Shown here piece by piece: positions 2,211 through 22,300 of a DNA stretch of 32,000 bases. Below the pieces are notes generated by a model. It was not told where the DNA came from. It made no database searches and saw nothing but the letters and a program-made list of their open reading frames with translations. The position numbers and the translations under genes were made by a program. Within the stretch, counting starts at the first letter, position 1; each line of letters starts with the position of its first letter. The stretch comes from Erysipelothrix larvae. GTDB taxonomy: Bacteria; Bacillota_I; Bacilli_A; Erysipelotrichales; Erysipelotrichaceae. The stretch covers positions 630,001-662,000 of the forward strand of contig NZ_CP013213.1 of the NCBI RefSeq assembly GCF_001545095.1, given 5' to 3'.

Positions 2211-2263
2211 TGTATTTGTCAACTGAATAATGGTCCAAATCTCAATTGAAAACTGGTCCACTA
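2211..2263. repeat. IS21 terminal inverted repeat (istB-proximal end)
   Basis: Sequence tgtatttgtcaactgaataatggtccaaatctcaattgaaaactggtccacta. It matches the reverse complement of 4538-4590 at about 45 of 53 positions by hand alignment, and the inner 24 nt are identical. It contains an internal TGGTCCA direct repeat (2231-2237 and 2254-2260), like the multi-site IstA-binding ends of IS21 elements. Confidence 0.8.
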
Positions 2264-2270
2264 CCGTTTG

Positions 2271-3017
2271 TCATTCTTTGCTCTTTAGCCAAGCAATTGT
2301 TTCTTCAACACGATAACTCTCTCCACTCATATTTAATAGATGTGATTTATAGGTTAAGCGGTCGACTAGAGCAGTTGTTAGAATGGGGTCTTTGAATATT
2401 TCTTCCCATCTATCGAACATTAAATTTGTTGTAATAATCATAGAGCCCACTGTTATTCTATTTGAGATTAGATTGAATAGAATTTCACTTCCTTCTTTAT
2501 CAAATGATACATAGCCGAGTTCATCAAGAATTACTAGATCAAATTTTTCAAACTTCTTTTTGTATTGCGTAATTTGATTTTTTGACATAGCTTCTTTTAA
2601 CTCTATAATTAGATTAGGAACGCTGATAAATAGCACTTTTTTATTTTCTAGACAAGCTTTGATTCCAAGTGCGGTCGCATAATGTGTTTTTCCCATTCCA
2701 GGATTACTCATTAAGATAATGTTTTCTTTATTTTCTATAAAGTTCAATGTTTCCAGTTCTTTAAACTTTCGTTTTAATTCTGAATTAAATTTTACAGTCG
2801 TAAAATCCTCCAATGTCTTGTTTTGAGGAAATCGAGCAGCACGAATGCGTTGTTTTATTCCGTTGTCACGACGATTGTTTCGTTCGCAATAAAGCAGTTC
2901 GTTAAGAAATTCTTGAAAATCCAATCCTTTGTGTTTCGCTTCCTGTATTGCTGCTTCATAGTGTGTTTTTATGAATGAAAGTTTTAATTCTTTTGACAAT
3001 TGTTCAATTGTTTCCAT
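2271..3017 (-). CDS. istB: IS21-family helper ATPase IstB
   Basis: 248 aa with Walker A (MSNPGMGKTHYATALG) and Walker B (LVILDELGY). It sits 11 nt downstream of istA, the typical IS21 arrangement. Confidence 0.9.
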   Translation of the reverse strand: METIEQLSKELKLSFIKTHYEAAIQEAKHKGLDFQEFLNELLYCERNNRRDNGIKQRIRAARFPQNKTLEDFTTVKFNSELKRKFKELETLNFIENKENIILMSNPGMGKTHYATALGIKACLENKKVLFISVPNLIIELKEAMSKNQITQYKKKFEKFDLVILDELGYVSFDKEGSEILFNLISNRITVGSMIITTNLMFDRWEEIFKDPILTTALVDRLTYKSHLLNMSGESYRVEETIAWLKSKE

Positions 3018-3028
3018 TAATTTATCTC

Positions 3029-4477
3029 CTAGTGCATTAATTGGCTTATTTTCTTAAGTTGTTTACGTGATTGTTCTTGTATGCTGTCATCATACTCAAC
3101 GGTGTCAATTGTATTTGAAACCAACCGATACTTTAAAGCATCTTTGAGCGTTTTATACGTTTCATTCCTGTTTTCTTGAAGAATTTCTATGAACTCTTTA
3201 GTTCTTGTTTTATAATGATTATGGTAGATGTTATAAAGCTCAGGATGTTGTTTTAGGACAAGTGAATTCTTTACAGATCCCGGCTTAGTCATCATTGTAT
3301 TCAGATAGTGGTCCAACACAAGCTGATATTGATGATGACCATCTATCTTTTTATGTTCGTACACAAATGTGTGATTTGAATAGATGCGTATCGAATTTAC
3401 GGTGTTTTTGACCGTAACTCTTTTGTGTTGGAGATAGTCTGGGACTGAATAAAAATTATTTTCAACGTGTATACAACCATACTTGTCAACACTATATACT
3501 TCGATATCAGCGAATTCATAAGGAATTCTGTAAGGTTGAAGTTCTTTCTTTTCATCTTCGATTGAACTCTTTATATTGATTTCATCAAGAGTCTGTTCAA
3601 GATGAACACATGCCTCTTCAAATGTTTCAAACTTATAGTCCTTTGCGAATACACGATTTCGAATTACCTTAACACTGTTTTCTACACTTCCTTTTTCATG
3701 ACCACTTCGTATATTAGTCAGGTTAATTTCAAAATTATAATAGAGTGCCAGTTTGAGGCAATCATCATTAATTTCTTTTTCATAAGGCGTTATAAAGCGC
3801 TTCACGACGTTTCTCATATTGTCATATACAACTTCACCCCAAGAGCCTTTAGAATGCTCAAAGAAGCGAACATGTGCATCTATGAATACTTGTTTGCGTT
3901 GGTTTGGATATAAATATGCATACCGATATCCGCTTGCTGGTGATGAGAAAACAGCGAGATAATATGTTCTTGGTTCACCATTAATTAAAAGCTTTACTTC
4001 TCCAAAGTCAAACTCTAACCGCTCACCATATCGATAATCTTGTCGAATAAATGTTTCTCGTGAAGCTTGAATTTCATGCACAAAATTTCGTATGGTTGTC
4101 TGACCAATATCATGTCCCTCGCTTTTGATAATTTCAAAAATTTGAGTGACTGTTAACTTTTGCTTATGATGTCTTCCTAGTAACATATCTTTATCTTTTT
4201 CTGAATCCATAATTTCAATGATGCGTGCTTGAATTTCTTGCGTTAACTTGCGCTTACCTCGTTTGCTTGCATCATAGTGACGGTCCCCAACAATTTGATC
4301 AATGACTTCTACTTTTCTTTCGTCTGATAAATCATGATTATCAATCAATTGTATTTGACATTTATTATATTCCTGAAGATACCGTGCGACCGTCTTTCGG
4401 TCTATACCCAATTCAAGGGCAATCTTTCTGTTGGACCATCCTTTCTTTTTTAATGTGATAATTGAATATTTGCTCAT
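3029..4477 (-). CDS. istA: IS21-family transposase IstA (DDE)
   Basis: The N-terminal HTH is KKKGWSNRKIALELGIDRKTVARYL, followed by a long catalytic core. The track starts at a GTG (4516). The ATG at 4475-4477 (MSKYSIITLKK...) has AGAGGTGA 8 nt upstream and is the likelier start. Confidence 0.9.
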   Translation of the reverse strand: MSKYSIITLKKKGWSNRKIALELGIDRKTVARYLQEYNKCQIQLIDNHDLSDERKVEVIDQIVGDRHYDASKRGKRKLTQEIQARIIEIMDSEKDKDMLLGRHHKQKLTVTQIFEIIKSEGHDIGQTTIRNFVHEIQASRETFIRQDYRYGERLEFDFGEVKLLINGEPRTYYLAVFSSPASGYRYAYLYPNQRKQVFIDAHVRFFEHSKGSWGEVVYDNMRNVVKRFITPYEKEINDDCLKLALYYNFEINLTNIRSGHEKGSVENSVKVIRNRVFAKDYKFETFEEACVHLEQTLDEINIKSSIEDEKKELQPYRIPYEFADIEVYSVDKYGCIHVENNFYSVPDYLQHKRVTVKNTVNSIRIYSNHTFVYEHKKIDGHHQYQLVLDHYLNTMMTKPGSVKNSLVLKQHPELYNIYHNHYKTRTKEFIEILQENRNETYKTLKDALKYRLVSNTIDTVEYDDSIQEQSRKQLKKISQLMH

Positions 4478-4537
4478 TTGTGATATCACCTCTTTCACCT
4501 CCAAAAGCATTATCACACACTTCTGAAGTTATAAAAA

Positions 4538-4590
4538 TAGTGGACCAGTTTTCAATTGAGAATTGGCCCACTTTTAGATTAACAAATACA
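4538..4590. repeat. IS21 terminal inverted repeat (istA-proximal end)
   Basis: Sequence tagtggaccagttttcaattgagaattggcccacttttagattaacaaataca, the inverted partner of 2211-2263. The element ends in CA at 4589-4590. Confidence 0.8.
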
Positions 4591-5483: not shown

Positions 5484-6293
5484 TTAAGTAATATCGTGCT
5501 CTTTTTGAAGGGTACACATCCAGTATCCAAATCCTGAGCCTGCAAACAATAGCACAAGACTTTCTAAGCAAAGCGTGCTAAAGCCCTGGGGCATAATCAT
5601 TAGGGTAGAAGCCAAAATGATACCCAATATACAATGAAATAACACAGTATGCGCGTTATTGAAAGCAAAATTCATCATTTTCGACAGCAATAACACCGTG
5701 CATATGGTTCCAATTAAAATAGGAATGATAATCATTAAATCAAAGTTGATTAATCCATCAGTCATATGCTTATACAATCCCAGATACACAATTAAATTTG
5801 TTGGGCTAAGTCCTGGTATAATTAACCCAAGCCCAATCAAAACACCCACAATTATCCATGTACTGAATTTTGGGTGTGGATTTAGATAAAGTAGAGTTTC
5901 CCCAAACACCATAAGCATCAAACTTATCAAAAACACTAAAATGAGTATGATAATGTGCTTTTTCTCTCGTCCCTTTGCGCCTGCTTGCTTCCAAAGGGAA
6001 GGTACAGTACCGAGAATACAGCCTACAAATAACCATAAAATTTGAGTTTCATACCTGCTTAAGAAAAAGCTCATGAGGTACGAAAAAAAGATCACACCTG
6101 AAATACCACCAAGTCCAAGTGGAATAAAGTAAATGATATTACTTTTGAAATTATGGGTTATATGTGCTAAAAAAGTAATGATTTGTTGGTATACGCCAAA
6201 AACGGCAGCTAAAGCGCCTCCGCTGACTCCAGGTAAGATAAAACCAGATCCGATCAAAACGCCTTTTATAAATCTCAAAATCCAATCAATCAT
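5484..6293 (-). CDS. DUF368-family polytopic membrane protein (the family implicated in undecaprenyl-phosphate recycling)
   Basis: The N-terminal motif is FIKGVLIGSGFILPGVSGGALAAVFGVY, and a second copy of the motif reads LIGLGLIIPGLSPTN. That is the characteristic DUF368 internal duplication. The protein is hydrophobic throughout. I prefer the ATG at 6291-6293 (AAGGAG 10 nt upstream) over the track start at 6320, which has no RBS. Confidence 0.7.
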   Translation of the reverse strand: MIDWILRFIKGVLIGSGFILPGVSGGALAAVFGVYQQIITFLAHITHNFKSNIIYFIPLGLGGISGVIFFSYLMSFFLSRYETQILWLFVGCILGTVPSLWKQAGAKGREKKHIIILILVFLISLMLMVFGETLLYLNPHPKFSTWIIVGVLIGLGLIIPGLSPTNLIVYLGLYKHMTDGLINFDLMIIIPILIGTICTVLLLSKMMNFAFNNAHTVLFHCILGIILASTLMIMPQGFSTLCLESLVLLFAGSGFGYWMCTLQKEHDIT

Positions 6294-6365
6294 GGGTAAT
6301 TTACTCCTTTTTAAGATCATACTACTAACTGATTCTGTATACTAAATATAATTAAGTACAAGCCA

Positions 6366-6401
6366 ATAAAGAAAGGCAACTTATCAGAAGATAGATTGCC
6401 T
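6366..6401 (-). terminator. Probable intrinsic terminator of the PadR operon
   Basis: On the minus strand, the hairpin aggcaatctatc-ttct-gataagttgcct has two central mismatches. It is followed by the T-rich run ttctttatt, directly after the stop at 6410. Confidence 0.5.
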
Positions 6402-6409
6402 ATTTGATG

Positions 6410-7027
6410 TCATTTCTTTGTAATCAAATTGTCAATGAGTTGATAAAGAAAGAACAAGCAGAATAAACCGATGCTATACAGCGCAAGTGTTAAACTGAGT
6501 GCAGAGAGTATAAATGTAATGTGTAGCAGTGAATCCAAGAAATGAATGATAAGGAATACGAAAGCGAAAATGGAAGCATATCCTAATAAATAATAGTGTG
6601 TTGTTTTCTCGAGTAAATCAACGCCGTTTGCTTCTGTAAACTCCGCAACTTGGAAATGACTGATTGCCTTTTTTACCGCAAGTTCGTGTGTTTCGCCTTG
6701 ACTTATTAAGTCCAAAACAATATCATTCAAATACTGTTCAAGCTCTTCCTTTTCATCGTTACTTACAGTCATATGATCAACGAAATGATGAATGTCGTCG
6801 AACTTTTTATACATCGTCTTAATCTTTAAATGACTCATATAATTCAGTATACTCCATATCAAAGCAACTGCAAATCCTACACCATACATCACTGTTTCGG
6901 TTGTTGGGGCAAGATTGCCAAAATATCGTCCGATGTAAAATGATGCAATAAATGCTGCGATGGAGAGACAAAGAACCCATGGGTATTGCATCTTAGATAG
7001 ATTAAAAACTTTTTTGATAATGTTCAC
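6410..7027 (-). CDS. PadR-associated membrane protein (function unknown)
   Basis: 205 aa. It uses a GTG start with AAGGAGG 7 nt upstream, overlapping the PadR stop. It has N- and C-terminal TM segments. The central soluble segment EKEELEQYLNDIVLDLISQGETHELAVKKAISHF resembles the helper domains commonly encoded after padR genes. Confidence 0.55.
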   Translation of the reverse strand: MNIIKKVFNLSKMQYPWVLCLSIAAFIASFYIGRYFGNLAPTTETVMYGVGFAVALIWSILNYMSHLKIKTMYKKFDDIHHFVDHMTVSNDEKEELEQYLNDIVLDLISQGETHELAVKKAISHFQVAEFTEANGVDLLEKTTHYYLLGYASIFAFVFLIIHFLDSLLHITFILSALSLTLALYSIGLFCLFFLYQLIDNLITKK

Positions 7028-7039
7028 TACGAAACCTCC

Positions 7040-7354
7040 TTAAATGAATTTGTTCACTAATTGGACAGTTTGCTCCCAATCAGCGCTCAGAATTTTTAGT
7101 TGCTCTTTTCCAAGATCGGTTATTTTGAAATACCTACGCCGACCTCCACCCGTCTCATTTCCCCAATAAGCTTCAATAAACTGATTTTTTTCAAGACGCT
7201 TCAATGCAATATACATGGTAGCTTCTAAGATTTCAAACAGGTCATCGGATCTTGCTTTGATCCTTTTTGAGATTTCATAACCATAATTATCCCCACTCAA
7301 CAACACGCTCAATATGAGAATATCAATTGTACCTTTTAGCATTTCTTTATTCAA
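7040..7354 (-). CDS. PadR-family transcriptional regulator
   Basis: 104 aa with a PadR winged-HTH pattern (ILILSVLLSGDNYGYEISKRIK...YIALKRLEKNQFIEAYW...GGRRRYFKITDLGK). It uses a TTG start with GAGGAGG 7 nt upstream. Confidence 0.85.
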   Translation of the reverse strand: MNKEMLKGTIDILILSVLLSGDNYGYEISKRIKARSDDLFEILEATMYIALKRLEKNQFIEAYWGNETGGGRRRYFKITDLGKEQLKILSADWEQTVQLVNKFI

Positions 7355-7404
7355 AGACGCACCTCCTCAACTACTCAAAACTATTATGTATTGAATATGA
7401 ACTT

Positions 7405-7433
7405 AGTATAATGTGAGTACTTAAAAATGTCAA
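7405..7433 (-). promoter_or_regulatory. Sigma-A-type promoter of the PadR operon, bracketed by AGTACTTAA repeats
   Basis: The minus strand reads TTGACA (7428-7433), 17 nt, then TATACT (7405-7410). Two AGTACTTAA copies (7416-7424 and 7433-7441) sit 17 bp apart, and their core AGTACT is palindromic. They overlap the spacer and the -35 box. Confidence 0.55.
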
Positions 7434-7675
7434 GTACTTAATAAACTTTTTATATTTTGCTTTTATTGCACTATAGATAAGATGATACGCCGATTCTGTA
7501 GAAAGGTAGTGATATCCTTTTTGTTACCGTAACATTGATATATATGGATTTGATTTTGATATGCTGACTGTGCTTTAAAAAAAACGGGTCAAACACCTTT
7601 GTTTGCGATTGATCGAGAATCACATTAGTTGATCAATAAAATAGAGAAACGAGCAGGTAAATCCTATCAGAGGTT

Positions 7676-7705
7676 TTGTGCAAAGAATATATGGATTACT
7701 ATAAG
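7676..7705 (+). promoter_or_regulatory. Candidate promoter for the jet operon
   Basis: TTGTGC (7676-7681), 18 nt, then TATAAG (7700-7705), about 75 nt upstream of the jetA ATG. The match is weak and not unique within the 7355-7781 intergenic region. Confidence 0.25.
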
Positions 7706-7781
7706 TGAGAGTACTTTCGAAATCAGGGGGTTCAACGGTGTTTTATTGTGATTAAATTAATGTATTCACAAGGAGGTGCCC

Positions 7782-9122
7782 ATGGTTAACAGAATCTTTG
7801 AATCAATCCAACCGAATTTCTTTCGTATTCTTTCCAATGCTTCAAAGTTTGAGTACGCAGAGTGCTTAGCACTGTTGTATGAATCCCTCTCAGAATCTAA
7901 TGAGTATACCATGCTCAGACACGATGCTGTTTTAATCTTACAAAACTACTTCGAACAGATTCGCCTTAAATCAGATGAGACTTTGGTTCAAACAAGTCGA
8001 GATCGTGCGAATAATTATTTGCGTGAAATGAAGGAAACCGGATGGGTTGAAGAAGATATCGGCGCAAACTATCAACAAATGCTCTCCCTATCAGAAACCG
8101 CAGTCCAGTTTCTGATTTTTATCGATACCTTGAAGTATGATACAGAGCTCAAATACTCCAGTCAAATTTATGCCATTTACCGCAGTTTTAAACCATTTGA
8201 TCTTGAGAAAGGGGAGCTTGTACTTGAAGAAGCCTACAAAAATACCGTCTCTTTTTTTGATAGTTTAAGACGACTCAATACAAGTATCAAGAAATACATT
8301 CAAAAAATCTTTGATGAATCCATCACCAATGACTTATCAGAACTGTTTCAACTGCTGACGGGAGAGTATCAATTGAAAATTGTGGATGCAGCCTATTACC
8401 ATTTATTAACGAAGGATAATCCAAGTCAATATACCTTTACAATAACCGATAGCATTGAACGCATTCTTTCAGATTATGATGCAATGCATGAAATGAGCCT
8501 CAGAAATGCAGTAGATAATGAAAGTTATGAACGGAATTACCAAGACCTTCAACTAAAACTGACCTATATGTTGGAGAAATTCTTAAACATCCAAACATTG
8601 ATCCATGAAATCAACAAGAAGAATCAAGCCTTTGTGACCTCGGCAATTGGCCGTATCTATTTTTTAATGAACGAATCAACCGATATCACGGGGAGTATCA
8701 ATGAACTGATTAAAAACATGGCACTATATCCAGACTTTGAAGTGGAAGGCTTATTAAGTGATGTCAGTATTCTCGATGATGCCTCCTTGGCTTCACCGCG
8801 TAAACGCACCCTGAAAGAATCGTCCTATATTGAAGAAATGGATGAAACACAACGGGATATCAGTGGAATCCAAGATAAACTGGTTGAATTAAGCAAATAC
8901 TCGAAACAACAAGTCGATCGGATTGTGCTTGAACTCCTAAAAGGGAAGCAGTGGATCCATGTTAAGGAGTATGACACCCTTGACGTCACCATGGTTACGC
9001 TCATCTTCTTATATGGGTACGCATATGATGCGTCCTACACGATTGAACAAACACCCGACACCTACATCAACCAAGAAGGCAAAGTACTGGGGAATTATAT
9101 TATCAGAAGGAGACCTGTATGA
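7782..9122 (+). CDS. jetA: Wadjet JetA-like subunit (kleisin-like, MksF/DUF3375-type)
   Basis: 446 aa from the ATG at 7782 (AAGGAGG 5 nt upstream). The track start at 7776 is a GTG inside the RBS spacing. It is the first gene of a four-gene operon, with the size and position expected for JetA. Its N-terminus (FFRILSNASKFEYAECLALLYESL) resembles MksF/JetA N-termini. The call rests mainly on context. Confidence 0.7.
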   Translation: MVNRIFESIQPNFFRILSNASKFEYAECLALLYESLSESNEYTMLRHDAVLILQNYFEQIRLKSDETLVQTSRDRANNYLREMKETGWVEEDIGANYQQMLSLSETAVQFLIFIDTLKYDTELKYSSQIYAIYRSFKPFDLEKGELVLEEAYKNTVSFFDSLRRLNTSIKKYIQKIFDESITNDLSELFQLLTGEYQLKIVDAAYYHLLTKDNPSQYTFTITDSIERILSDYDAMHEMSLRNAVDNESYERNYQDLQLKLTYMLEKFLNIQTLIHEINKKNQAFVTSAIGRIYFLMNESTDITGSINELIKNMALYPDFEVEGLLSDVSILDDASLASPRKRTLKESSYIEEMDETQRDISGIQDKLVELSKYSKQQVDRIVLELLKGKQWIHVKEYDTLDVTMVTLIFLYGYAYDASYTIEQTPDTYINQEGKVLGNYIIRRRPV

Positions 9123-9757
9123 ACAAAGCAGAAGAACTCAAGAACTTTTCAATGAAGTTCTCACGACAAACCGAAAAGGAACAAGAACAGTTTTCTGAAA
9201 TCGTCAACAAACTGTTACGCTGTAATTATCTATGTCGCGATAATCCGTCCGATCGCTCCCACTATTTTGACGCTCTGATTATCCGTGAAGACATGCGTGC
9301 TTATTTATCCATCATAGATACCGATATCATCATCGATGAACTCAATGGTGTAATCGGACTTAAAGTCAACGGTGAATCCAGTCACCACCGATTAAGACTG
9401 CGTGAAACGATTATTCTTCTGTGCTTGCGTAAACTTTTCTTCATTAAGAAACAATCCGTGTCGATGATTGATACGATCGCGGTAACCCTTGAAGAAATCA
9501 TGCAAGAACTCCTCAATACGGGATACTTTGAAAAAGGGGTTGGGAAAACAGAATTTGAAACCACCCTTAGAAAACTTAAATCCTATCATCTCATCGACTA
9601 CTCATTCACCCAATCACCCGATGTCATTATCCTATGGCCATCCTTGCTGCATGCAGTAAATGCCAATACCTTAGAAGAAATCCAAAAGAAACTCGATGTA
9701 TACAAAGACAATATGGAGGTAGACGATGAAAATACTGAAGAAGATAAAGCTGATTAA
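9119..9757 (+). CDS. jetB: Wadjet JetB-like subunit (KITE-like, MksE/DUF4194-type)
   Basis: 212 aa. Its start overlaps the jetA stop as ATGA (9119-9122). The pattern MRAYLSIIDTDIIIDELNGVIGLK...HHRLRLRETIILLCLRKLF matches my memory of MksE/DUF4194 proteins. It has an acidic C-terminal tail. Confidence 0.7.
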   Translation: MNKAEELKNFSMKFSRQTEKEQEQFSEIVNKLLRCNYLCRDNPSDRSHYFDALIIREDMRAYLSIIDTDIIIDELNGVIGLKVNGESSHHRLRLRETIILLCLRKLFFIKKQSVSMIDTIAVTLEEIMQELLNTGYFEKGVGKTEFETTLRKLKSYHLIDYSFTQSPDVIILWPSLLHAVNANTLEEIQKKLDVYKDNMEVDDENTEEDKAD

Positions 9758-12700
9758 TTGGCATATTTTTTCCAATGAAACCATTGAATTATCGGGGAAT
9801 ACGTTAATCACGGGTGAAAATGGCAGTGGGAAGTCAACCATCCTGGATGCCATGCAATACATCCTTACGGCAGGCTCAACGAAATTCAATATGGCAGCCA
9901 ATGAAAGCAGCACTCGAACTTTAGTCTCTTATGTCCGTGGAAAACTCGGGGTAGAAGGCAAGGAATTCATTCGAAGTGGTGATGTAGTCAGTCACATTGC
10001 CTTGGAATTCTATAACGAAGAATCCGATGTAATTCAAGTGTTGGGTGTGGTCCTTGAAGTTGGTGCACAATCAATGGCAAAACCCCACTTCTATAAAGTT
10101 GATCAACCTTTTGAAGATGCATGGTTCCTAGAAGATCGAAAAGTCCGGAATTATGCGGAGTTCAAACAAACCCTAAAAGGCCTTCAAATCGAGTTGGATA
10201 CACCCACTACCGCTACCCAAAGACGCACTCTATTTATGAACACAATGGGTTTAGATCTAAAATACCGTGAACTCATACCCAGAGCCTTAGCCTTTCGCCC
10301 CGTCAATGATATCCAAGACTTTATCTACCGCTATCTTCTGAATGAACAAAACATCGACATTGATGCTTTACGAGATAGCATTCGCGAGTACCGCCGCTTA
10401 GAGAAACAATTGGAACATGAACAACGTTACTTCCAAAAACTTGAAATTATTGATGCGAAATACACACAATTAAAAAAACAGGAATATGAAGTTTCGGTCA
10501 ATGAAAGTGCGATTCAATTGTTAAGGTTGAATCTATATAAGAACACCATTGAAGTAAATGAGAAACAGATCTATGGGGACCAACAACGCTTAAAACAACT
10601 TGCCAAGTCAAAAGAGCAAGCCAATGAGCGTTTGGGAATCTATCAAGAAGCCCTGGCGGATATGCGAAAGAATCCAACTCTAGAGCGCTTAGAAAAACTT
10701 AAACTCGCACTGGCTCACGCTAAAAAAGAATATGAATCAAATGAAGCAATCTTAAAACATGTCGAAACTGAATATCATCGGTTAATAAAAACACTGAAGT
10801 CCGTGGATTTTAAAGAAACCATTCATGATGGTAATGATGTTCAAGCAATCCAAAACCAACTTGCATCCATTAAGAAAGCAGTGGATCAAAAACTAAAGAC
10901 GACCTATCTTCAAAAAATTAAATATGAGGAAGAGATCGAAGCGACGCATCGCACACGCTTGGAACTCGAACATGACATTGAACGGCTCAAACGCCAACAA
11001 CAAGTTTATCCAGAGAACGTCAAAAAACTCATTGTCGTCTTAAAAGAACGCTTGAGTGAGTTTTACCATGAAAGTGTTGAAGTCCGTCCACTTTTTGAAT
11101 ACCTTGAAATCAAGGATGAATCATGGCGTAACGCCATTGAAGGGTATTTGAATACACAACGCTTTAATATCATTGTGGAGCCTCGCTATTTTGATATGGC
11201 AGTCAAAATATATGACCAAATCAAACACGACATGAATATTTATGGTGTACGAGTTGTGGACGTTTTAAAAACACATGGCAAAAAAGCTCTGGAAGGTTCC
11301 TTAGCACAACACCTTACAGTCATGGACGAATATGTGTTGGGTTATATGAACTATTTATTAGGGTCAGTAATCTGTGTTGATTCAGTATCAAACTTGAAAG
11401 AACATCCCATTTCCATAACTCAAGAAGCCATGGTTTACAAAGGCTATGCCGTGTTTGCCATTCGACCTGAGATTTATAAACGCCCTTACATAGGTCAAGC
11501 TGCGATCCAGATACAACTGACTCAACGTCAAGAAGAACACAAAGCGCTTATGCAAACCTTGATTGAAAAACGGCAACACAAAGATGCTCTTGAAGTTGTT
11601 GAAAACACGCTAGAGTCCATTAATATCTTAAATCTTGAAGTCAGCATCTCAGGTTTAAAGGATCGAAAAACACTCTTTGAAACTTATAAACTGAATGAAG
11701 ATGCCGTGAATCAAATCCAAAGTAATCCGAATCTCACACTTCAACTTCAAAAAGCACAAGAGCTTGAAGTCAACATCAAGACCTTACAACAAGAGATATC
11801 AAGAAGTGATCAAGCAATCGGGGGACTGAACAGGAATATTGCTGCCACAACTGAAAAGAATGAAGATGTTAAGGCAACCTATGAAATCCTTTATGATGCG
11901 TATGAGCGTACCAAAGATGACAATCCAAGCCTTCTATTTGATGCAGAAGCCACCATGAAATCCAGTTTAGATGCGTCAAGTCACAATCACCAACGTGCCA
12001 TGGATACGCTTCAGACACAAAACAAAGCCTTGAGTGCGAACTTTGTAGATCAAAAATTGTCTTTACAACAAGATATGAGTGAGTATAACCACATGAGTAA
12101 CAGTGGCTATGGTGTGGGTCTTGAATGCATTGATCAATACCTTACACGATATTATAAACTTCGTGATGTTGATTTGATTGCATCACGCAACAGTTGTCGG
12201 CAAGCACGAGAAAAAAGTGAACAACAATTCCATGACAGCTTCATTCACCAGCTCTCACAAAATATCAAACAAGCACGCAGAAATATTGATCTTCTAAATC
12301 GCCAATTGCGTAAGCATACCTTTAGGGATGAGCAATATCGCTTTGACATCTCAGCCAGCAAATCACCGCACTTTGCACAATACTATAAGATCATAACCTC
12401 TGATAAAGAAGCATTCCCAAGTAATCTGTTTATGCAAATGCTGTCGCAACAAGAAAGTGAAGTCATGAAGGAACTATTCAGACGCATTACTGCCTTTGAT
12501 GATGATGGTAAAAATGAACAAGAACTCAGACGCTATACGGATTATCGAAACTACATGAGTTACGATATTATCACAACCAAGGAGAATGGTGATATTACCC
12601 GCTTATCCACAGTGATTAAAGAGAAATCAGGGGGTGAAACCCAAACGCCATTTTATGTGACGATTGCTGCATCCTTTGAACAACTTATCTCAAAGATATC

Positions 12701-12938
12701 AATGGTTGATTCAGGGTGTGTCGTGCTTTTTGATGAAGCCTTCAACAATATGGACTCTCAACGCATTCGTGCCATGTTAGAGTTCTACAATAACCTCAAT
12801 ATTCAAATTGTGATTGCAGTACCACCCGATCGCATCGCATCAATCAGTGAACATGTGGATACGGTCCTTGCAGTAGGACGCAGTGGAAACAGCGGATTCA
12901 CGCAAAGGATTCAATATGGAAAAAACGACACCCAATAG
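9726..12938 (+). CDS. jetC: Wadjet JetC-like SMC-family ATPase (MksB/MukB-like)
   Basis: 1070 aa with GGAGG 6 nt upstream. Walker A is GENGSGKST (9813-9839). About 850 aa of heptad-rich, coiled-coil-like sequence follow. The ABC signature-like SGGE is at 12627-12638 and Walker B VVLFDE at 12720-12737. The start overlaps jetB by 32 nt. Confidence 0.9.
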   Translation: MKILKKIKLINWHIFSNETIELSGNTLITGENGSGKSTILDAMQYILTAGSTKFNMAANESSTRTLVSYVRGKLGVEGKEFIRSGDVVSHIALEFYNEESDVIQVLGVVLEVGAQSMAKPHFYKVDQPFEDAWFLEDRKVRNYAEFKQTLKGLQIELDTPTTATQRRTLFMNTMGLDLKYRELIPRALAFRPVNDIQDFIYRYLLNEQNIDIDALRDSIREYRRLEKQLEHEQRYFQKLEIIDAKYTQLKKQEYEVSVNESAIQLLRLNLYKNTIEVNEKQIYGDQQRLKQLAKSKEQANERLGIYQEALADMRKNPTLERLEKLKLALAHAKKEYESNEAILKHVETEYHRLIKTLKSVDFKETIHDGNDVQAIQNQLASIKKAVDQKLKTTYLQKIKYEEEIEATHRTRLELEHDIERLKRQQQVYPENVKKLIVVLKERLSEFYHESVEVRPLFEYLEIKDESWRNAIEGYLNTQRFNIIVEPRYFDMAVKIYDQIKHDMNIYGVRVVDVLKTHGKKALEGSLAQHLTVMDEYVLGYMNYLLGSVICVDSVSNLKEHPISITQEAMVYKGYAVFAIRPEIYKRPYIGQAAIQIQLTQRQEEHKALMQTLIEKRQHKDALEVVENTLESINILNLEVSISGLKDRKTLFETYKLNEDAVNQIQSNPNLTLQLQKAQELEVNIKTLQQEISRSDQAIGGLNRNIAATTEKNEDVKATYEILYDAYERTKDDNPSLLFDAEATMKSSLDASSHNHQRAMDTLQTQNKALSANFVDQKLSLQQDMSEYNHMSNSGYGVGLECIDQYLTRYYKLRDVDLIASRNSCRQAREKSEQQFHDSFIHQLSQNIKQARRNIDLLNRQLRKHTFRDEQYRFDISASKSPHFAQYYKIITSDKEAFPSNLFMQMLSQQESEVMKELFRRITAFDDDGKNEQELRRYTDYRNYMSYDIITTKENGDITRLSTVIKEKSGGETQTPFYVTIAASFEQLISKISMVDSGCVVLFDEAFNNMDSQRIRAMLEFYNNLNIQIVIAVPPDRIASISEHVDTVLAVGRSGNSGFTQRIQYGKNDTQ

Positions 12939-14127
12939 CATACTTAACGTGCTTGTGGATAAGTACGAAAGCTCTGAAATCTCAAAAAAGAAATCCAACC
13001 GTAACATCGCCATCAAGATAAAGATGGTAAACTACGACGAAGAATACTATGATTCACGCGCGTTTAAACGGTACCAAGCATATCAAGATACCTTCAACTT
13101 ACTCACGAGCCTTGATTTTGTGAGTGTTGAATCTGAAGGGGAATACGTCCTTTCAATCATGCTCAATCTCAACAAAATTGACGCGATTTATGAATGGTTA
13201 GGACGTACGAACATCAAAGTATTCCGACAGGAACGCTTAGAAATCCTCAGAAACCACAACACACACCGTGAACTAGCACCCGTCTGTACCTTTCTCATCG
13301 AGCGTGAAATGAGCTTTAAATCCAACAAGCAATACTTTAAAGATGCTCATGAGCTCAAAGAAATCTTAAAAGCTATCGCTTACTTAGAAACACAAAGAGA
13401 TTTTGAATGTACGCTTCGCCAAGCATCACAGATTATCTATGGCAATACCAAACGACTGGAAGCACTTCAAGGAAAAGTCAGTAAACTGTTGCGTGCAGTG
13501 GAACCAACACTTGAAGGGCAAACCGATCAATCCATATTTGAGTTGTATGGCATTGTAAGAAATCCAACATATATCTATCTAAAAGGGTCTATGAACTTAA
13601 CCATTAAAAACCAAGTCATTCAATTAGGTACATTGGGAGGAAGTCTGGGATTTTCATCCGATCTTCTTCAAGATTTATCCATCAGTGGTGAAGGACCACG
13701 GTATTTGATCACGGTGGAGAACCTTGACACCTTTCACAAAATCCAGCCAACACAGGGTGTGATTGTATACTTAGGCGGGTTTCACAATGCAGCAAAACGA
13801 AGTTTTCTACAACGAATTTATACACACTCCCCAAACATTCACTATTATCACTTTGGGGATATTGATGCAGGCGGATTCTCGATTTTTCAAGACCTTATCA
13901 AAAAGACAACCATCCCATTTGAACCCATGTTGATGGATGTAGAATGCTTACACACCTATCATAACTTCACACGCCCCTTAACACAAAATGACAAGACTGC
14001 ACTTGAAGCAATGCGAAATACGTCATTTTGCGCAGTCATTGATTATATGTTACGTGAAAACGTTAAACTTGAACAAGAAATCGTGGATGCTAGTGTGTTT
14101 ATCTCAAATCTTGATAATCATCAATAA
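12916..14127 (+). CDS. jetD: Wadjet JetD-like Toprim nuclease (MksG-like; DUF3322 plus DUF2220-type C-terminus)
   Basis: 403 aa from the ATG at 12916 (AAAGGA 6 nt upstream). The track start at 12883 has no RBS. The C-terminal half carries Toprim-like motifs: LITVENLDTF (VEN at 13714-13722) and HFGDIDAGGFSIF (GDIDAGG at 13855-13875). It overlaps the jetC end by 23 nt. Confidence 0.85.
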   Translation: MEKTTPNSILNVLVDKYESSEISKKKSNRNIAIKIKMVNYDEEYYDSRAFKRYQAYQDTFNLLTSLDFVSVESEGEYVLSIMLNLNKIDAIYEWLGRTNIKVFRQERLEILRNHNTHRELAPVCTFLIEREMSFKSNKQYFKDAHELKEILKAIAYLETQRDFECTLRQASQIIYGNTKRLEALQGKVSKLLRAVEPTLEGQTDQSIFELYGIVRNPTYIYLKGSMNLTIKNQVIQLGTLGGSLGFSSDLLQDLSISGEGPRYLITVENLDTFHKIQPTQGVIVYLGGFHNAAKRSFLQRIYTHSPNIHYYHFGDIDAGGFSIFQDLIKKTTIPFEPMLMDVECLHTYHNFTRPLTQNDKTALEAMRNTSFCAVIDYMLRENVKLEQEIVDASVFISNLDNHQ

Positions 14128-14153
14128 AATAACGGGCTCTAATTTGAAATAAT

Positions 14154-14193
14154 TAAAAAAAGGTCCAGAGGATTTAAGTCTTCTGGACCTTTA
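14154..14193. terminator. Hairpin terminator between the convergent jetD and EIIC genes
   Basis: AGGTCCAGA...TCTGGACCT is a 9-bp stem at 14161-14190. The A-run at 14155-14160 upstream gives a strong T-run for the minus-strand gene. Only TTAT follows on the plus strand. Confidence 0.6.
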
Positions 14194-14220
14194 TGTTACA
14201 ACGTGAATAATAATGGATAT

Positions 14221-15300
14221 TTACATACCACCCTTATTTTCAAAGACACTTGCATCATAGAGCTTAAACACCTTGCGATAGAGCATATCGCTAAAAAGGG
14301 CACTGACTACGGGGACGATAAAGAAACATAAGCAGACAATTCCCAGTTGAAGTAAGCTAGAAGTACCATTTGAAACACCTGCTTCAAAGGCAGCAAGTGG
14401 ACCTACTAAACCTACAATACCAAATCCTGAAGATTGCGCCGTTCCCGCGATGTTAAAGAGTGATGCAACAAGACCACTGATTGCTGAAGTGGTGATAATC
14501 GGAAGGCAAATGATTGGATGTTTCACAAGATTTGGAATCATCATTTTCATTGCACCTAAGAAAACAGCAAGTGTCACACCTTTTTCATTGTTCGCACGGA
14601 TTGATCCAACAACAAGCATGATTGCACAAGCACCCACACCAATTGCTGCAGCTCCAGCTGATAGACCGTTTAGCCCAACTGCAAGCCCAATCGCAACGGT
14701 TGATATTGGTGTGATGATAATAATTGAAAACGATATTGCAATTAACACACACATTAAGATGACTTGCATATTTGTAAAGGTGTTAATGAGTGTACCAATT
14801 TGACTGGTAATACTACTTACATAAGGTAGGATTAATACCCCGATAAATCCTGGTAATGCACCACCTAGAATTGGAAGCAATACTACCGTAAGTGATCCAA
14901 GTTTATCCTTGAAGAGATCAATGAGGATGACTGCAAAAAACGCAGTAAACATAACATTGAACAGATCTCCGGTTCCCGCAATTTTCCAATAGTTATCTGC
15001 TACTTGATAGGTAACAACCCCTGACCCAATAAATGTCGCCGCAGATAGGCATGCGCTTTGGATGCCATTATAGCCAAACTGAAGCCCAATCAACGCTCCA
15101 ATAACAAGTGGGACTGTAAATTGAATTGCATATACGACTTCCCATAATGTTTGGAAAATATCCATATTTGTTGACTTGTATAAGACTGAAAAGACTTGGC
15201 CAAGTATTGCATTTGGAATCAGTGCGACAACAATCCCTGTCGCAACACCCCCTAATATTTTATTCAGATACTCATTCGGTTTATGTCTAAAGATTGACAT
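14221..15300 (-). CDS. Polytopic membrane transporter, probably the PTS EIIC_2-type sugar permease family
   Basis: About 359 aa, highly hydrophobic and Gly/Ala-rich. The N-terminus YLNKILGGVATGIVVALIPNAILGQVF resembles PTS_EIIC_2 proteins as I recall them. I prefer the ATG at 15298-15300 (GGGAGGA 9 nt upstream) over the track start at 15318. Confidence 0.55.
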   Translation of the reverse strand: MSIFRHKPNEYLNKILGGVATGIVVALIPNAILGQVFSVLYKSTNMDIFQTLWEVVYAIQFTVPLVIGALIGLQFGYNGIQSACLSAATFIGSGVVTYQVADNYWKIAGTGDLFNVMFTAFFAVILIDLFKDKLGSLTVVLLPILGGALPGFIGVLILPYVSSITSQIGTLINTFTNMQVILMCVLIAISFSIIIITPISTVAIGLAVGLNGLSAGAAAIGVGACAIMLVVGSIRANNEKGVTLAVFLGAMKMMIPNLVKHPIICLPIITTSAISGLVASLFNIAGTAQSSGFGIVGLVGPLAAFEAGVSNGTSSLLQLGIVCLCFFIVPVVSALFSDMLYRKVFKLYDASVFENKGGM

Positions 15301-19953: not shown

Positions 19954-19995
19954 AAAACTTCGACGTGATCCATTGCGGATTAGTCGAAGTTTTTT
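19952..19995. terminator. Bidirectional intrinsic terminator
   Basis: AAAAAACTTCGAC (19952-19964) pairs perfectly with GTCGAAGTTTTTT (19983-19995). This gives U-runs in both orientations. It overlaps the scrK stop codon. Confidence 0.65.
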
Positions 19996-20891
19996 ACTTC
20001 ATAATCAATATCAGGAATTGCGCCATGTTGACTGACAACACGGGCACTAATCTGACGTGCATAGTCCAGTGCAAAAGGGAGTGTGCTGTGTTGCCATCTT
20101 TCAAAGGATTCATGTGAGTTTGAAAGCGATGCGAGCACCATTGCGATAAAACTATCGCCTGCACCGGTTGTATCGACTTGAGGTACATTGAGTGAGTCGG
20201 TATGAATATAGGTACCGTCTTGTGTGAGTGTAATGGAACCGTCCTTTCCCATCGTACAAATCACAAGTTGTTGATGTGTTTGAAGCTGTTTAAGTCCCGC
20301 TTTGATATCCTGTGTGCCACATAACCACTTAAGCTCTTCTTCATTAACTTTGATGATGTCACACAAGGGAATACATTTCATAACCGTTTCATAGGCAAGG
20401 TCTACGTTTTCCCAAAGTTTTTCACGAAGATTGACATCAAAACTGATAATCCCCCCAAGTGCTTTGCATTTGTTGATTGCATGGAGATGTGCGCTCAGTG
20501 TTGTTTCATAAGGCACCAGTCCCAAGGAACAAAAATGAAGAATGTCACGGGGTTTAAAAGGGATGCGGTCAATATCTTCAATGCTTAAAAATAAATCTGA
20601 ACTTCGATCACGATAAAACTGGAAACTGCGATCACCTTCAGTGTGTGACACCAGTGCGAGTGCTGTTTTATGAGGGCTCTTTGTTAAGGGAAAGTAGATA
20701 TCATTATCTATGAGAAATTGATGCATGGATGATCCAAAGGCATCTTCGCTTATTTTCCCTACAAACAGTGCAGGGGTGTTACTGCGTCGTATATGACACG
20801 CGACATTGGCGGGTGCGCCTCCAATATAAGGAACATATGCATCGCCTTCTTGCATTAAATCAATAAGCATTTCTCCAATACTATAGATCAT
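19980..20891 (-). CDS. scrK: Fructokinase (PfkB/ribokinase family)
   Basis: 303 aa. The N-terminus reads GEMLIDL...GGAPANVA, and the C-terminal PfkB signature is DTTGAGDSFIA. It overlaps the scrB end by 11 nt, and a GGAGGA RBS lies inside scrB. Confidence 0.85.
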   Translation of the reverse strand: MIYSIGEMLIDLMQEGDAYVPYIGGAPANVACHIRRSNTPALFVGKISEDAFGSSMHQFLIDNDIYFPLTKSPHKTALALVSHTEGDRSFQFYRDRSSDLFLSIEDIDRIPFKPRDILHFCSLGLVPYETTLSAHLHAINKCKALGGIISFDVNLREKLWENVDLAYETVMKCIPLCDIIKVNEEELKWLCGTQDIKAGLKQLQTHQQLVICTMGKDGSITLTQDGTYIHTDSLNVPQVDTTGAGDSFIAMVLASLSNSHESFERWQHSTLPFALDYARQISARVVSQHGAIPDIDYEVKNFD

Positions 20892-22281: not shown

Positions 22282-22300
22282 TTAAGGCACCTCCAATTAA

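What the first reader, a model, noticed from the sequence alone, without database searches (positions are those of the whole stretch)
7782..14127. Four-gene SMC-like operon matching the Wadjet (JetABCD / MksBEFG) anti-plasmid defence architecture
Seen in the sequence: four co-directional, overlapping genes of about 446, 212, 1070 and 403 aa. The third has an N-terminal Walker A (GENGSGKST), a very long heptad-rich middle, and a C-terminal SGGE signature plus Walker B (VVLFDE). That is a split ABC/SMC head joined by a coiled coil. The fourth ends in a Toprim-like domain (VEN ... GDIDAGG). Established knowledge: this order and these sizes (kleisin-like JetA, KITE-like JetB, SMC-like JetC, Toprim nuclease JetD) define Wadjet. 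Wadjet was first reported in the 2018 defence-island survey by Doron et al. It was later shown to sense and cleave small circular DNA by loop extrusion. Inference: this locus is a complete Wadjet system. By gene sizes it may be type I, but I cannot assign the subtype without HMMs. It is the best candidate for the notable system in this window. I regard it as a member of a described family, not a new system.
Basis: partly seen in the sequence, partly recalled or inferred. Interest (0 to 1): 0.88.

Follow-up and report, generated by a model that had tools for sequence, protein, structure and literature searches.

The report
Ordinary type I Wadjet anti-plasmid operon

Summary
Four co-directional, overlapping genes lie at 7782-14127 (+) and encode 446, 212, 1070 and 403 aa. 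Each has its own Shine-Dalgarno site, and every quoted motif is present.

All four proteins match PADLOC type I Wadjet profiles over their full length: JetA1 7e-67, JetB1 2e-40, JetC1 1031 bits, JetD1 3e-88. Type II and III models score only about 1e-6. Pfam agrees (JetA, DUF4194, AAA_29 plus SbcC_Walker_B, JetD_C).

A confident JetD model (pLDDT 92.5) has as its best solved-structure matches MksG, P. aeruginosa JetD, topoisomerase VI-A and Spo11. The Toprim metal ligands E268 and D315xD317 and the C-terminal E386-Q-E388 are invariant in 30 homologues.

The window comes from the E. larvae chromosome. The nearest operon, on a metagenome contig, has the same four genes in unrelated flanks.

The system is very distant in sequence from every experimentally studied Wadjet, but it shows no architectural departure from them. 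The likely mechanism is inferred by homology: JetABC extrudes DNA loops using ATP, stalls on small circular DNA, and JetD then cleaves.

Novelty: already known. Interest is low.

The parts
7355..7781 (+). 427-nt intergenic region between the divergent PadR operon and jetA. It presumably holds the jet promoter and 5' leader, and it includes the jetA Shine-Dalgarno AGGAGG at 7771-7776.
   Evidence: Sequence read. The promoter-like hexamers at 7427-7456 and 7613-7642 match only 9 of 12 positions, and such sites are no more frequent than in shuffles, so no promoter is assigned. There is no Rfam hit. The region shows no similarity to the upstream region of the closest operon, L001.
7782..9122 (+). 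jetA, 446 aa: the kleisin-like subunit of type I Wadjet.
   Evidence: PADLOC JetA1 7e-67, residues 6-446 against profile 4-466/467. Pfam PF18982 JetA 1e-86 over the whole profile, 1-434/434. 70% identical to JetA of L001. No solved structure is reachable by pairwise sequence search.
9119..9757 (+). jetB, 212 aa: the KITE / MukE-like subunit. It overlaps jetA by 4 nt (ATGA).
   Evidence: PADLOC JetB1 2e-40, 12-208 against 2-201/202. Pfam DUF4194 3.2e-20, 1-165/165. The best PDB sequence match is E. coli JetB 8as8_C, at only E=0.056. 75% identical to JetB of L001.
9726..12938 (+). jetC, 1070 aa: the SMC-like ABC ATPase. Its N- and C-terminal half-heads are separated by about 700 residues of arms plus a central hinge region. 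Walker A is at nt 9813-9836, the signature at 12627-12638 and Walker B at 12720-12737, with the catalytic Glu at E1004.
   Evidence: PADLOC JetC1 E=0, 1031 bits, 1-1067 against 1-1090/1097. Pfam AAA_29 at residues 4-60 and SbcC_Walker_B at 936-1022. Motifs confirmed. The N-terminal head matches PA14 JetC 8dk1_C at 4.9e-9. Heptad signal is found only in 201-480 and 641-900. Against L001 the heads are 73% and 88% identical, the arms 49-54% and the centre 57%.
12916..14127 (+). [quoted passage not shown] E268 is in nt 13714-13722, D315xD317 in nt 13855-13875, and E386-Q-E388 in nt 14071-14079. It overlaps jetC by 23 nt.
   Evidence: PADLOC JetD1 3.4e-88, 17-402 against 5-406/409. Pfam JetD_C 1.9e-22. 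AlphaFold model with pLDDT 92.5. Foldseek against the PDB gives 8b7f MksG 3.6e-10, 1d3y topo VI-A 1.3e-8, 7til JetD 6e-8 and Spo11 8urq 1.5e-7. E268, D315, D317, E386 and E388 are invariant in 30 homologues. 100% identical to E. larvae AOC36_02935.
14159..14192 (.). Terminator-like hairpin between jetD and the convergent PTS EIIC gene. It has a 15-bp stem and a 4-nt loop, an A-tract 5' and a T-tract 3', so it probably works in both directions.
   Evidence: RNA fold of 14128-14205: -23.7 kcal/mol, z = -5.47, and 0 of 200 shuffles fold as well. Sequence confirmed. The simple pattern scan did not call it.

Best explanation
The locus is a complete, apparently intact type I Wadjet (JetABCD, also called MksBEFG or EptABCD) system on the chromosome of Erysipelothrix larvae.

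Shown here: the four genes, their order, their family membership, the intact ATPase and nuclease motifs, and the Toprim/topo VI-A-like fold of JetD.

Inferred by homology from work on the E. coli GF4-3, P. aeruginosa PA14, B. cereus and C. glutamicum systems:
1. JetA (kleisin), JetB (KITE) and JetC (SMC ATPase) assemble into a dimer-of-dimers, JetA2B4C4.
2. This complex loads on DNA without sequence preference and extrudes a loop symmetrically, driven by ATP hydrolysis. The Walker B residue E1004 is the catalytic glutamate.
3. On a small closed circle, up to some tens of kb and at most about 100 kb, the two motors use up all the DNA and stall.
4. The stalled state activates the JetD dimer. Its Toprim site (E268, D315, D317 binding Mg2+, plus the C-terminal E386/E388) then cuts both strands and linearises the plasmid. 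The chromosome and linear DNA are spared.

The expected phenotype is strong restriction of plasmid transformation and conjugation into E. larvae.
For: Anatomy: four overlapping, co-directional genes, each with its own Shine-Dalgarno site, one upstream intergenic region and one strong hairpin after jetD.

Family: full-length PADLOC type I hits for all four proteins, together with Pfam JetA, DUF4194, AAA_29 + SbcC_Walker_B and JetD_C.

Subtype: JetC2, JetD2 and JetD3 models reach only 1e-5 to 1e-6, and no JetA or JetB model of type II or III appears.

Catalytic competence: the JetC Walker A, signature and Walker B motifs are intact. JetD E268, D315, D317, E386 and E388 are invariant across 30 homologues. 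E268 and D315xD317 lie just after the first and third strands of the predicted C-terminal (Toprim) sheet, strands 263-267 and 309-313.

Fold: MksG, JetD, topo VI-A and Spo11 are the only matches with E <= 0.001.

Self-contained cassette: the closest operon, L001, keeps the same four genes at 51-75% identity with nearly the same sizes (446/209/1069/413 aa), but its flanks are unrelated.

Mechanism from the literature:
- Cleavage of circular but not linear DNA, dependence on ATP, the JetC E1022Q and JetD E248A mutants, and the equivalence of JetD E248/D290/D292 to topo VI-A E197/D249/D251 (bioRxiv 10.1101/2022.10.04.510915).
- Symmetric loop extrusion, stalling and cleavage by JetA2B4C4 plus JetD, and the PA14 JetD E365A mutant (PMC10889018).
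- MksG E236/D279 and E349/E351 (PMC10123090).
- Deletion of a native Bacillota Wadjet raised conjugation by about 5 logs (PMC12287153).
Against: Nothing here tests activity or expression. No promoter could be assigned above chance.

The proteins are very distant from every studied system. Pairwise searches of the PDB find nothing for JetA or JetD. They find only E=0.056 for JetB, and only the first 110 residues of JetC. Details such as the plasmid size cut-off, the JetB-JetD docking and the auto-inhibition of JetD are therefore extrapolated.

The coiled coil and hinge of JetC are supported only by the full-length profile match, a crude heptad test and the pattern of conservation. The structure prediction failed.

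Complex formation was not modelled.
Confidence: 0.92

Rival explanations
1. The operon looks intact but is silent or non-functional in this strain. It would be a resident cassette that is not expressed, or whose diverged subunits no longer assemble, so it gives no plasmid restriction.
For: No promoter is called above chance in the 427-nt upstream region. An IS21 element and a broken integrase lie 3-6 kb upstream, which shows some local genome flux. JetD has diverged more than JetABC from the nearest relative, 51% against 62-75%.
Against: All four reading frames are full length against their profiles. Every catalytic residue is kept and is invariant in the family. The Shine-Dalgarno sites and the overlapping stop/start arrangement are preserved. 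The L001 operon keeps the same gene order, near-identical sizes and every motif checked (JetC Walker A, signature and Walker B; JetD VEN, GDxD and EQE), which suggests the cassette is maintained rather than decaying.
Confidence: 0.05
2. The locus is a housekeeping MksBEF/MukBEF-type condensin that organises the chromosome, and the fourth gene is an unrelated or accessory neighbour.
For: JetABC and MukBEF share their architecture (review PMC10586767). JetC gives a faint Pfam MukB N-terminal hit (E=0.0037, 17.5 bits, below the 23-bit cut-off) and weak SMC hits.
Against: The best profiles by hundreds of bits are the Wadjet-specific JetA1, JetB1 and JetC1, not MukF, MukE or MukB. The fourth gene overlaps jetC by 23 nt, which suggests translational coupling, and it is a full-length JetD1 with the MksG/JetD fold. 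All four genes travel together in L001. NCBIfam SMC equivalog scores (36 bits) are far below their cut-offs (567 bits).
Confidence: 0.02
3. The locus is a different SMC-like or ABC-ATPase defence system: Wadjet type II or III, Lamassu, a Gabija/OLD-type system, or a Rad50-SbcCD-like nuclease.
For: The JetC P-loop region gives weak hits to AriA, PtuA, MAD3, NsnB, Rad50 and RecF models (1e-7 to 1e-12, N-terminal residues only). JetC2, JetD2 and JetD3 models hit at about 1e-6.
Against: Most of those hits (MAD3, PtuA, NsnB, Rad50, RecF) cover only the first 40-85 residues and score 44 bits or less, and even the longer AriA alignment (4-401) scores only 34 bits. JetC1 scores 1031 bits over the full length. 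A kleisin and a KITE subunit are present, which Lamassu and Rad50 systems lack (review PMC10586767). No Mre11/SbcD-type gene is present.
Confidence: 0.01

Closest known systems
Type I Wadjet / JetABCD of Bacillota (Bacillus cereus Q1, the system tested by Doron et al. 2018; Clostridium cellulovorans 743B jetABCD, PMC12287153)
   Same: It has the same four genes in the same order and the same PADLOC type I profile families. It is chromosomal and in the same phylum. The expected anti-plasmid role matches: native deletion in C. cellulovorans raised conjugation by about 5 logs.
   Different: No direct sequence comparison with these two systems could be made here. This lineage is isolated: its nearest JetD is 51% identical and the rest are 30-37% identical. 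Nothing has been tested experimentally in Erysipelothrix.
E. coli GF4-3 JetABCD (PDB 8as8, 8bfn) and P. aeruginosa PA14 JetABCD (PDB 8dk1, 7til)
   Same: The subunit set and domain architecture are the same. The JetC Walker B glutamate (E1004 here, E1022 in E. coli) and the JetD Toprim E...DxD triad (E268/D315/D317 here, E248/D290/D292 in E. coli) are kept. The JetD model matches 7til at Foldseek probability 1.00.
   Different: Sequence similarity is close to the detection limit: JetB E=0.056, only the first 110 residues of JetC, and nothing for JetA or JetD. The TM-score to 7til is only 0.35, with an rmsd of 13 A. That is consistent with a different relative orientation of the N- and C-terminal domains, but it was not analysed. 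The PA14 JetB 'IFDR' docking motif is not literally present. A conserved N-terminal K-F-S-R is there instead, and its equivalence was not tested.
Corynebacterium glutamicum MksBEFG (MksG nuclease, PDB 8b7f)
   Same: It is the best structural match to the JetD model (E=3.6e-10). It has the same Toprim metal-binding acidic residues and the same C-terminal ExE (MksG E236, D279, E349/E351; PMC10123090).
   Different: Sequence identity in the structural alignment is 14%. MksG cleaves DNA in vitro without MksBEF, whereas E. coli and PA14 JetD need JetABC and ATP. Which behaviour applies here is unknown.
MukBEF / MksBEF condensins
   Same: They share the SMC-kleisin-KITE architecture and a dimer-of-dimers assembled through the kleisin (PMC10586767).
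   Different: They have no nuclease subunit and they organise the chromosome. The proteins here match Wadjet-specific profiles, not Muk profiles.
Topoisomerase VI-A / Spo11
   Same: They share the CAP-like plus Toprim two-domain fold and the Mg2+-binding E...DxD triad.
   Different: The literature reports that JetD and MksG lack the catalytic tyrosine of the 5Y-CAP domain and hydrolyse DNA rather than forming a covalent intermediate. This was not tested on the present model.

Membership tests
Wadjet type I (JetABCD) | Four co-directional genes in the order jetA-jetB-jetC-jetD, forming one operon | tested here: met
   The genes lie at 7782-9122, 9119-9757, 9726-12938 and 12916-14127, all on the + strand, with overlaps of 4, 32 and 23 nt. 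There is one hairpin terminator after jetD. The same arrangement is found in L001.
Wadjet type I (JetABCD) | JetA: kleisin-like protein of the JetA family (Pfam PF18982; PADLOC JetA1, labelled DUF5716) | tested here: met
   PF18982 1e-86, 291.7 bits against a cut-off of 26.2, covering profile 1-434/434. PADLOC JetA1 7e-67. The winged-helix/kleisin fold itself was not modelled.
Wadjet type I (JetABCD) | JetB: KITE / MukE-like protein (DUF4194) | tested here: met
   PF13835 3.2e-20, 72.9 bits against a cut-off of 32.7. PADLOC JetB1 2e-40 over the full length. The top PDB sequence match is E. coli JetB, weakly, at E=0.056.
Wadjet type I (JetABCD) | JetC: ABC-type ATPase head split into N- and C-terminal halves, with Walker A, signature and Walker B motifs | tested here: met
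   G30ENGSGKS, S968GGE and V999VLFDE1004. AAA_29 at residues 4-60 and SbcC_Walker_B at 936-1022. JetC1 1031 bits over the full length.
Wadjet type I (JetABCD) | JetC: long antiparallel coiled-coil arms joined by a hinge dimerisation domain (a true SMC rather than a Rad50-like protein) | tested here: inconclusive
   The support is indirect. The JetC1 profile aligns end to end. Heptad signal is confined to 201-480 and 641-900, at 9.5% of residues against 0.8% in shuffles. Heads are conserved, while arms and centre have diverged. The direct test failed: the single-sequence AlphaFold model has pLDDT 35.5.
Wadjet type I (JetABCD) | JetD: C-terminal Toprim domain with the conserved Glu and DxD metal ligands | tested here: met
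   JetD_C 1.9e-22. Model with pLDDT 92.5. Foldseek matches MksG, JetD, topo VI-A and Spo11 at probability 1.00. E268, D315 and D317 are invariant in 30 homologues.
Wadjet type I (JetABCD) | JetD: N-terminal CAP-like/arm domain without the topoisomerase catalytic tyrosine | tested here: inconclusive
   The full-length JetD1 models cover residues 17-402, and the structural alignments to topo VI-A span 283-321 columns, so an N-terminal domain of the right kind is present. No Pfam N-terminal family is hit. Absence of a catalytic tyrosine was not examined, and Y44 and Y92 are invariant in this clade.
Wadjet type I (JetABCD) | Subtype I rather than II or III | tested here: met
   The best type II and III hits are JetC2 1.5e-6, JetD3 8.9e-7 and JetD2 7.5e-6. 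The type I hits are E=0 and 3.4e-88. No JetA or JetB model of type II or III was hit.
Wadjet type I (JetABCD) | ATP-dependent, sequence-independent cleavage of small circular DNA, with plasmid restriction in vivo | not testable with these tools
   This is known only for homologues. The plasmid content of this strain was not examined.
Wadjet type I (JetABCD) | Assembly into JetA2B4C4 with JetD dimers | not tested
   No multimer prediction was available. The stoichiometry comes from PMC10889018.
MukBEF / MksBEF condensin (no nuclease) | Three-gene SMC-kleisin-KITE operon with no Toprim nuclease gene, matching MukB/F/E-type profiles | tested here: not met
   A fourth gene, overlapping jetC and probably translationally coupled to it, encodes a JetD1 nuclease. 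The Pfam MukB hit (17.5 bits) is below its 23-bit cut-off, and there are no MukF or MukE hits.
Lamassu / Rad50-SbcCD-like SMC-like systems | Coiled-coil ABC ATPase without kleisin and KITE partners, paired with an LmuA-type effector or an Mre11/SbcD nuclease | tested here: not met
   Kleisin (JetA) and KITE (JetB) partners are present. The Rad50 NCBIfam hits score 15-17 bits against cut-offs of 700-1087 and cover only the P-loop. No Mre11/SbcD-type neighbour is present.

The most novel reading that the evidence does not exclude
This operon and its single 51-75% identical metagenomic relative may form an isolated Erysipelotrichales-type branch of type I Wadjet. On this branch JetD evolves faster than JetABC (51% against 62-75% identity). 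The JetB N-terminal JetD-docking motif also differs from the PA14 'IFDR': it reads K-F-S-R-Q-T-E-K-E-Q-E-Q-F here. If that reflects selection from plasmid- or phage-encoded anti-Wadjet factors, or a different way of licensing JetD, the branch could differ from the studied systems in how the nuclease is recruited, or in its plasmid size cut-off or target range. The evidence does not exclude this and does not positively support it.
Probability: 0.07. Interest if true: 0.35.

Novelty: already known. Interest (0 to 1): 0.13.

Why it matters
It matters little for discovery. Wadjet type I is a described, structurally and mechanistically characterised defence, and a review puts Wadjet in roughly 5-10% of bacterial genomes (PMC10586767). 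Existing PADLOC and Pfam models already classify this locus, and UniRef already labels its JetD as a Wadjet protein.

There is some practical value. The GenBank record still calls JetD a 'hypothetical protein', so the annotation can be corrected. The system also predicts that E. larvae will be hard to transform with small replicative plasmids. Deleting 7782-14127 would be the obvious first step towards genetic tractability, as was shown for C. cellulovorans (PMC12287153).

As a very divergent type I member, it could also serve as an outgroup when asking which Wadjet interfaces are universally conserved.

Tried and rejected
1. Sequence searches of the PDB with JetD, alone and as a 30-sequence profile, with JetA and with JetB found no usable solved homologue. 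The one profile hit (2nbs, E=0.003) is a thioredoxin-like chance match. I therefore switched to a fold comparison, which worked.

3. Single-sequence AlphaFold of JetC gave pLDDT 35.5, and I discarded it as evidence. The JetC model used the last of the two structure jobs, so an alignment-based JetC model could not be run.

4. Synteny test for insertion. A genome-contig scan with the downstream PTS EIIC protein returned 26 loci at 59% identity or less. None contained jet genes or the window's other flanking genes. Whether the operon was inserted here cannot be decided.

5. Composition test for recent transfer. The jet genes have GC 0.391 against 0.385 +/- 0.023 for their neighbours, and GC3 0.401 against 0.337 +/- 0.038. 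That is at most a mild signal, and I do not interpret it.

6. Megablast of 7000-15000 against plasmids and phages gave no match. The locus is not a known mobile element.

7. I looked for a conserved accessory gene or leader. The L001 upstream genes and intergenic DNA have no counterpart in the window, and there is no Rfam family in the leader.

8. A PADLOC scan of ten neighbouring proteins found no second defence system. The only hit was an HTH-only match of the MerR regulator to mad1. This is not a defence island.

9. Deep et al. 2022 (PMC9637719) is not held in the library. The PA14 details come from the review and from PMC10889018.

Full report
OBSERVATION

Reading the start regions and re-translating fixes the genes as follows:
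- jetA 7782-9122, 446 aa, ATG preceded by AGGAGG at 7771-7776
- jetB 9119-9757, 212 aa
- jetC 9726-12938, 1070 aa
- jetD 12916-14127, 403 aa, ATG preceded by AAAGGA

The longer GTG-initiated ORFs (448 and 414 aa) begin inside or upstream of these ribosome-binding sites. The deposited JetD protein is 403 aa. The genes overlap by 4, 32 and 23 nt.

A 15-bp hairpin at 14159-14192 follows jetD (-23.7 kcal/mol, z = -5.5). It separates jetD from a convergent PTS EIIC gene. The observation and its coordinates are therefore confirmed exactly.

WHAT IT IS

Against PADLOC-DB the four proteins match type I Wadjet models end to end:

| Protein | Model | E-value | Protein residues vs profile |
|---|---|---|---|
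| JetA | JetA1 | 7e-67 | 6-446 vs 4-466/467 |
| JetB | JetB1 | 2e-40 | 12-208 vs 2-201/202 |
| JetC | JetC1 | 0 (1031 bits) | 1-1067 vs 1-1090/1097 |
| JetD | JetD1 | 3.4e-88 | 17-402 vs 5-406/409 |

Type II and III models reach only 1e-5 to 1e-6, and only for JetC and JetD. The subtype is therefore I.

Pfam agrees: JetA PF18982 (1e-86, whole profile), DUF4194 (3e-20), AAA_29 plus SbcC_Walker_B at the two ends of JetC, and JetD_C PF09983 (2e-22). NCBIfam has no specific model. It gives only sub-threshold SMC, RecF and Rad50 P-loop hits.

JetD FOLD

Sequence searches of the PDB with JetD, alone or as a 30-homologue profile, found no solved relative. I therefore predicted the structure from the alignment (A1). 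The model is confident, with mean pLDDT 92.5 and no segment below 50.

Foldseek against the PDB returns nine matches with E <= 0.001, and no others:
- C. glutamicum MksG 8b7f (3.6e-10)
- M. jannaschii topoisomerase VI-A 1d3y, two chains (about 1e-8)
- P. aeruginosa JetD 7til (6e-8)
- Spo11 core complexes 8urq and 8uru
- three further topo VI entries

That is the set of relatives the literature reports for JetD and MksG. The TM-scores are modest (0.35-0.42) and the rmsd values are large. This is what I would expect if the N- and C-terminal domains sit at different angles, but I did not analyse it further.

E268 and D315xD317 lie just after the first and third strands of the predicted C-terminal (Toprim) sheet, strands 263-267 and 309-313. 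They are invariant in 30 homologues, as are E386 and E388 near the C-terminus. These residues correspond in kind to three published sets:
- E. coli JetD E248/D290/D292, equivalent to topo VI-A E197/D249/D251
- MksG E236/D279 and E349/E351
- the nuclease-dead PA14 JetD E365A

The exact equivalence of the C-terminal glutamates is my inference from their position, not from an alignment.

JetC ARCHITECTURE

The split ABC head is shown directly by the motifs and Pfam domains. The arms and hinge are supported only indirectly:
- The JetC1 profile aligns across the whole protein.
- A crude heptad score exceeds the 99th percentile of shuffles for 9.5% of residues, against 0.8% expected. These residues lie only within 201-480 and 641-900.
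- Identity to the nearest relative is 73% and 88% in the heads, but 49-57% in the arms and centre. That is the usual SMC pattern.

A single-sequence AlphaFold run failed (pLDDT 35.5), so I do not use it.

ORIGIN AND CONTEXT

JetD is 100% identical to 'hypothetical protein AOC36_02935' of Erysipelothrix larvae, on a 2,495,108-bp contig. UniRef already names it a Wadjet JetD C-terminal domain protein. There is no near-identical DNA in the plasmid or phage collections.

The neighbours are ordinary chromosomal genes:
- Upstream, on the opposite strand: a PadR regulator, a 205-aa membrane protein and a DUF368-like membrane protein.
- Further upstream: an intact IS21-family element and a broken integrase.
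- Downstream: a PTS EIIC gene, a DapB-like dehydrogenase, a MerR regulator, a sucrose/fructan utilisation cluster, trigger factor, Lon, a GTPase of the EngB/YsxC type (my reading of its MMR_HSR1 domain hit), and a T-box-GNAT-valS unit.

A PADLOC scan of ten neighbours found no second defence system, so this is not a defence island.

The nearest relative of JetD is only 51% identical, and the rest are 30-37% identical. That relative lies on an 18-kb metagenome contig (L001). It carries the same four genes with sizes 446/209/1069/413 aa, at 70, 75, 62 and 51% identity, with the same motifs but with unrelated flanks and an unrelated upstream region. The conserved, portable unit is therefore exactly jetABCD.

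Whether the operon was inserted at this site cannot be decided. No sufficiently close genome was found, since the flank scan gave 59% identity at best and no synteny. Base composition is unremarkable, with GC 0.391 against 0.385 +/- 0.023 and a mildly higher GC3.

MECHANISM

This section is inferred by homology.
- Wadjet JetABC is an SMC-kleisin-KITE complex that forms a JetA2B4C4 dimer-of-dimers. It extrudes DNA loops symmetrically at about 0.5-0.7 kb/s. On a closed circle it consumes the whole molecule and stalls, and JetD then cleaves (PMC10889018).
- Cleavage needs ATP and the JetC Walker B glutamate, and it is independent of sequence. It acts on circular DNA up to roughly 100 kb and spares linear DNA (bioRxiv 10.1101/2022.10.04.510915).
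[quoted passage not shown] Across Bacillota genomes, Wadjet and plasmids under 40 kb are almost mutually exclusive (PMC12287153).

Every residue these activities depend on is intact here. I therefore expect the E. larvae operon to work the same way, with E1004 of JetC and E268, D315 and D317 of JetD as the key catalytic residues. Expression, assembly and activity were not and could not be tested. No promoter rose above chance in the 427-nt upstream region.

COMPARISON AND NOVELTY

All defining features that could be tested are met. The only gaps are direct structural confirmation of the JetC arms and hinge, and the nature of the JetD N-terminal domain.

The locus does differ from the studied systems in sequence distance. 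By pairwise search, JetA and JetD have no PDB hit, JetB reaches E. coli JetB only at E=0.056, and JetC matches PA14 JetC only over its first 110 residues. I found no architectural departure: no extra gene, no missing domain and no altered motif. No paper in the library links Wadjet to E. larvae. Wadjet has been noted in another member of the Erysipelotrichales, Bulleidia extructa.

The system is an ordinary, already classifiable member of a known family, and interest is low.

Noticed in passing
window 2211-4590: An apparently intact IS21-family insertion sequence. It has istA (3029-4516, -) and istB (2271-3017, -; IstB_IS21 1.7e-64), bounded by 53-nt terminal inverted repeats at 2211-2263 and 4538-4590 that are 85% complementary. 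Its GC3 is lower (0.25-0.30) than that of its neighbours.
   Followed up: partly
window ~990-1814 (- strand): A tyrosine-integrase pseudogene. ORF 1179-1814 covers only positions 2-100 of 172 of the Phage_integrase domain. The C-terminal catalytic part (…HDLRHSHAS…LGH…Y…) continues in another frame below 1190. It lies about 400 nt from the IS21 end and may be the remnant of an integrative element.
   Followed up: partly
window 30621-32000 (+): A T-box leader (RF00230, 101 bits) lies directly upstream of a GNAT acetyltransferase ORF (30835-31416, Acetyltransf_3 2.8e-35). That ORF is followed by what reads as the start of a valyl-tRNA synthetase gene (from about 31407), which runs off the window. 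My identification of valS is from the sequence, not from a profile hit. A GNAT gene placed between a T-box and its aminoacyl-tRNA synthetase is a little unusual.
   Followed up: partly
L001 3215-9553 compared with window 7782-14127: Identity to the closest operon falls along the operon: JetB 75%, JetA 70%, JetC 62%, JetD 51%. Within JetC the heads are 73% and 88% identical and the arms 49-54%. The nuclease is the fastest-evolving subunit in this pair.
   Followed up: partly
window 9119-9170 (JetB N-terminus): The JetB N-terminal segment NFSMKFSRQTEKEQEQF is nearly identical in L001 (DFSIKYSRQTEKEQEQF). It may be the counterpart of the 'IFDR' JetD-docking motif described for PA14 JetB. Most of it lies outside the Pfam DUF4194 match (residues 30-185). 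The equivalence was not tested.
   Followed up: no
window 12916-14127 (JetD), alignment A1: Besides the Toprim acidic residues, Y44, Y92, Y285, H290 and H312 are invariant in 30 JetD homologues. Y285 lies 17 residues after the catalytic E268, roughly where MksG has Y258 (22 residues after its E236), which has been proposed as a possible nucleophile. No structural superposition was done.
   Followed up: no
plasmid hits H1-H12: The plasmid-borne JetC relatives listed are only 21-30% identical. They sit mostly on large replicons of 174 kb to 2 Mb, apart from one partial match on a 59.8-kb plasmid. This is consistent with the published size limit for Wadjet targets.
   Followed up: no
window 7355-7781: An unusually long (427 nt) AT-rich intergenic region lies between the PadR operon and jetA. 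It has no Rfam family, no ORF, no convincing promoter, and no similarity to the upstream region of the L001 operon.
   Followed up: partly
window 5484-7354 (- strand): A three-gene unit runs divergently from jetA: a PadR regulator (7040-7354), a 205-aa predicted membrane protein with no Pfam or PADLOC family (6410-7027), and a DUF368/VCA0040-like membrane protein (5484-6320).
   Followed up: partly
window 19980-24847: A sucrose/fructan utilisation cluster: PfkB kinase, GH32 hydrolase, PTS EIIBC and a LacI regulator. It is ordinary metabolism and unrelated to the finding.
   Followed up: no
window 25102-25404 (+): A 100-aa ORF that matches only sigma-70 region 2 (3.1e-9). It could be a very short sigma-like protein or a fragment.
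   Followed up: no
L001 8312-9553: The called start of JetD in the metagenome contig (413 aa, MAIVVLLKGFNMEKTT…) is probably 11 codons too far upstream. The internal MEKTT start matches the window's 403-aa protein, and the same applies to the 414-aa GTG ORF listed for the window.
   Followed up: partly
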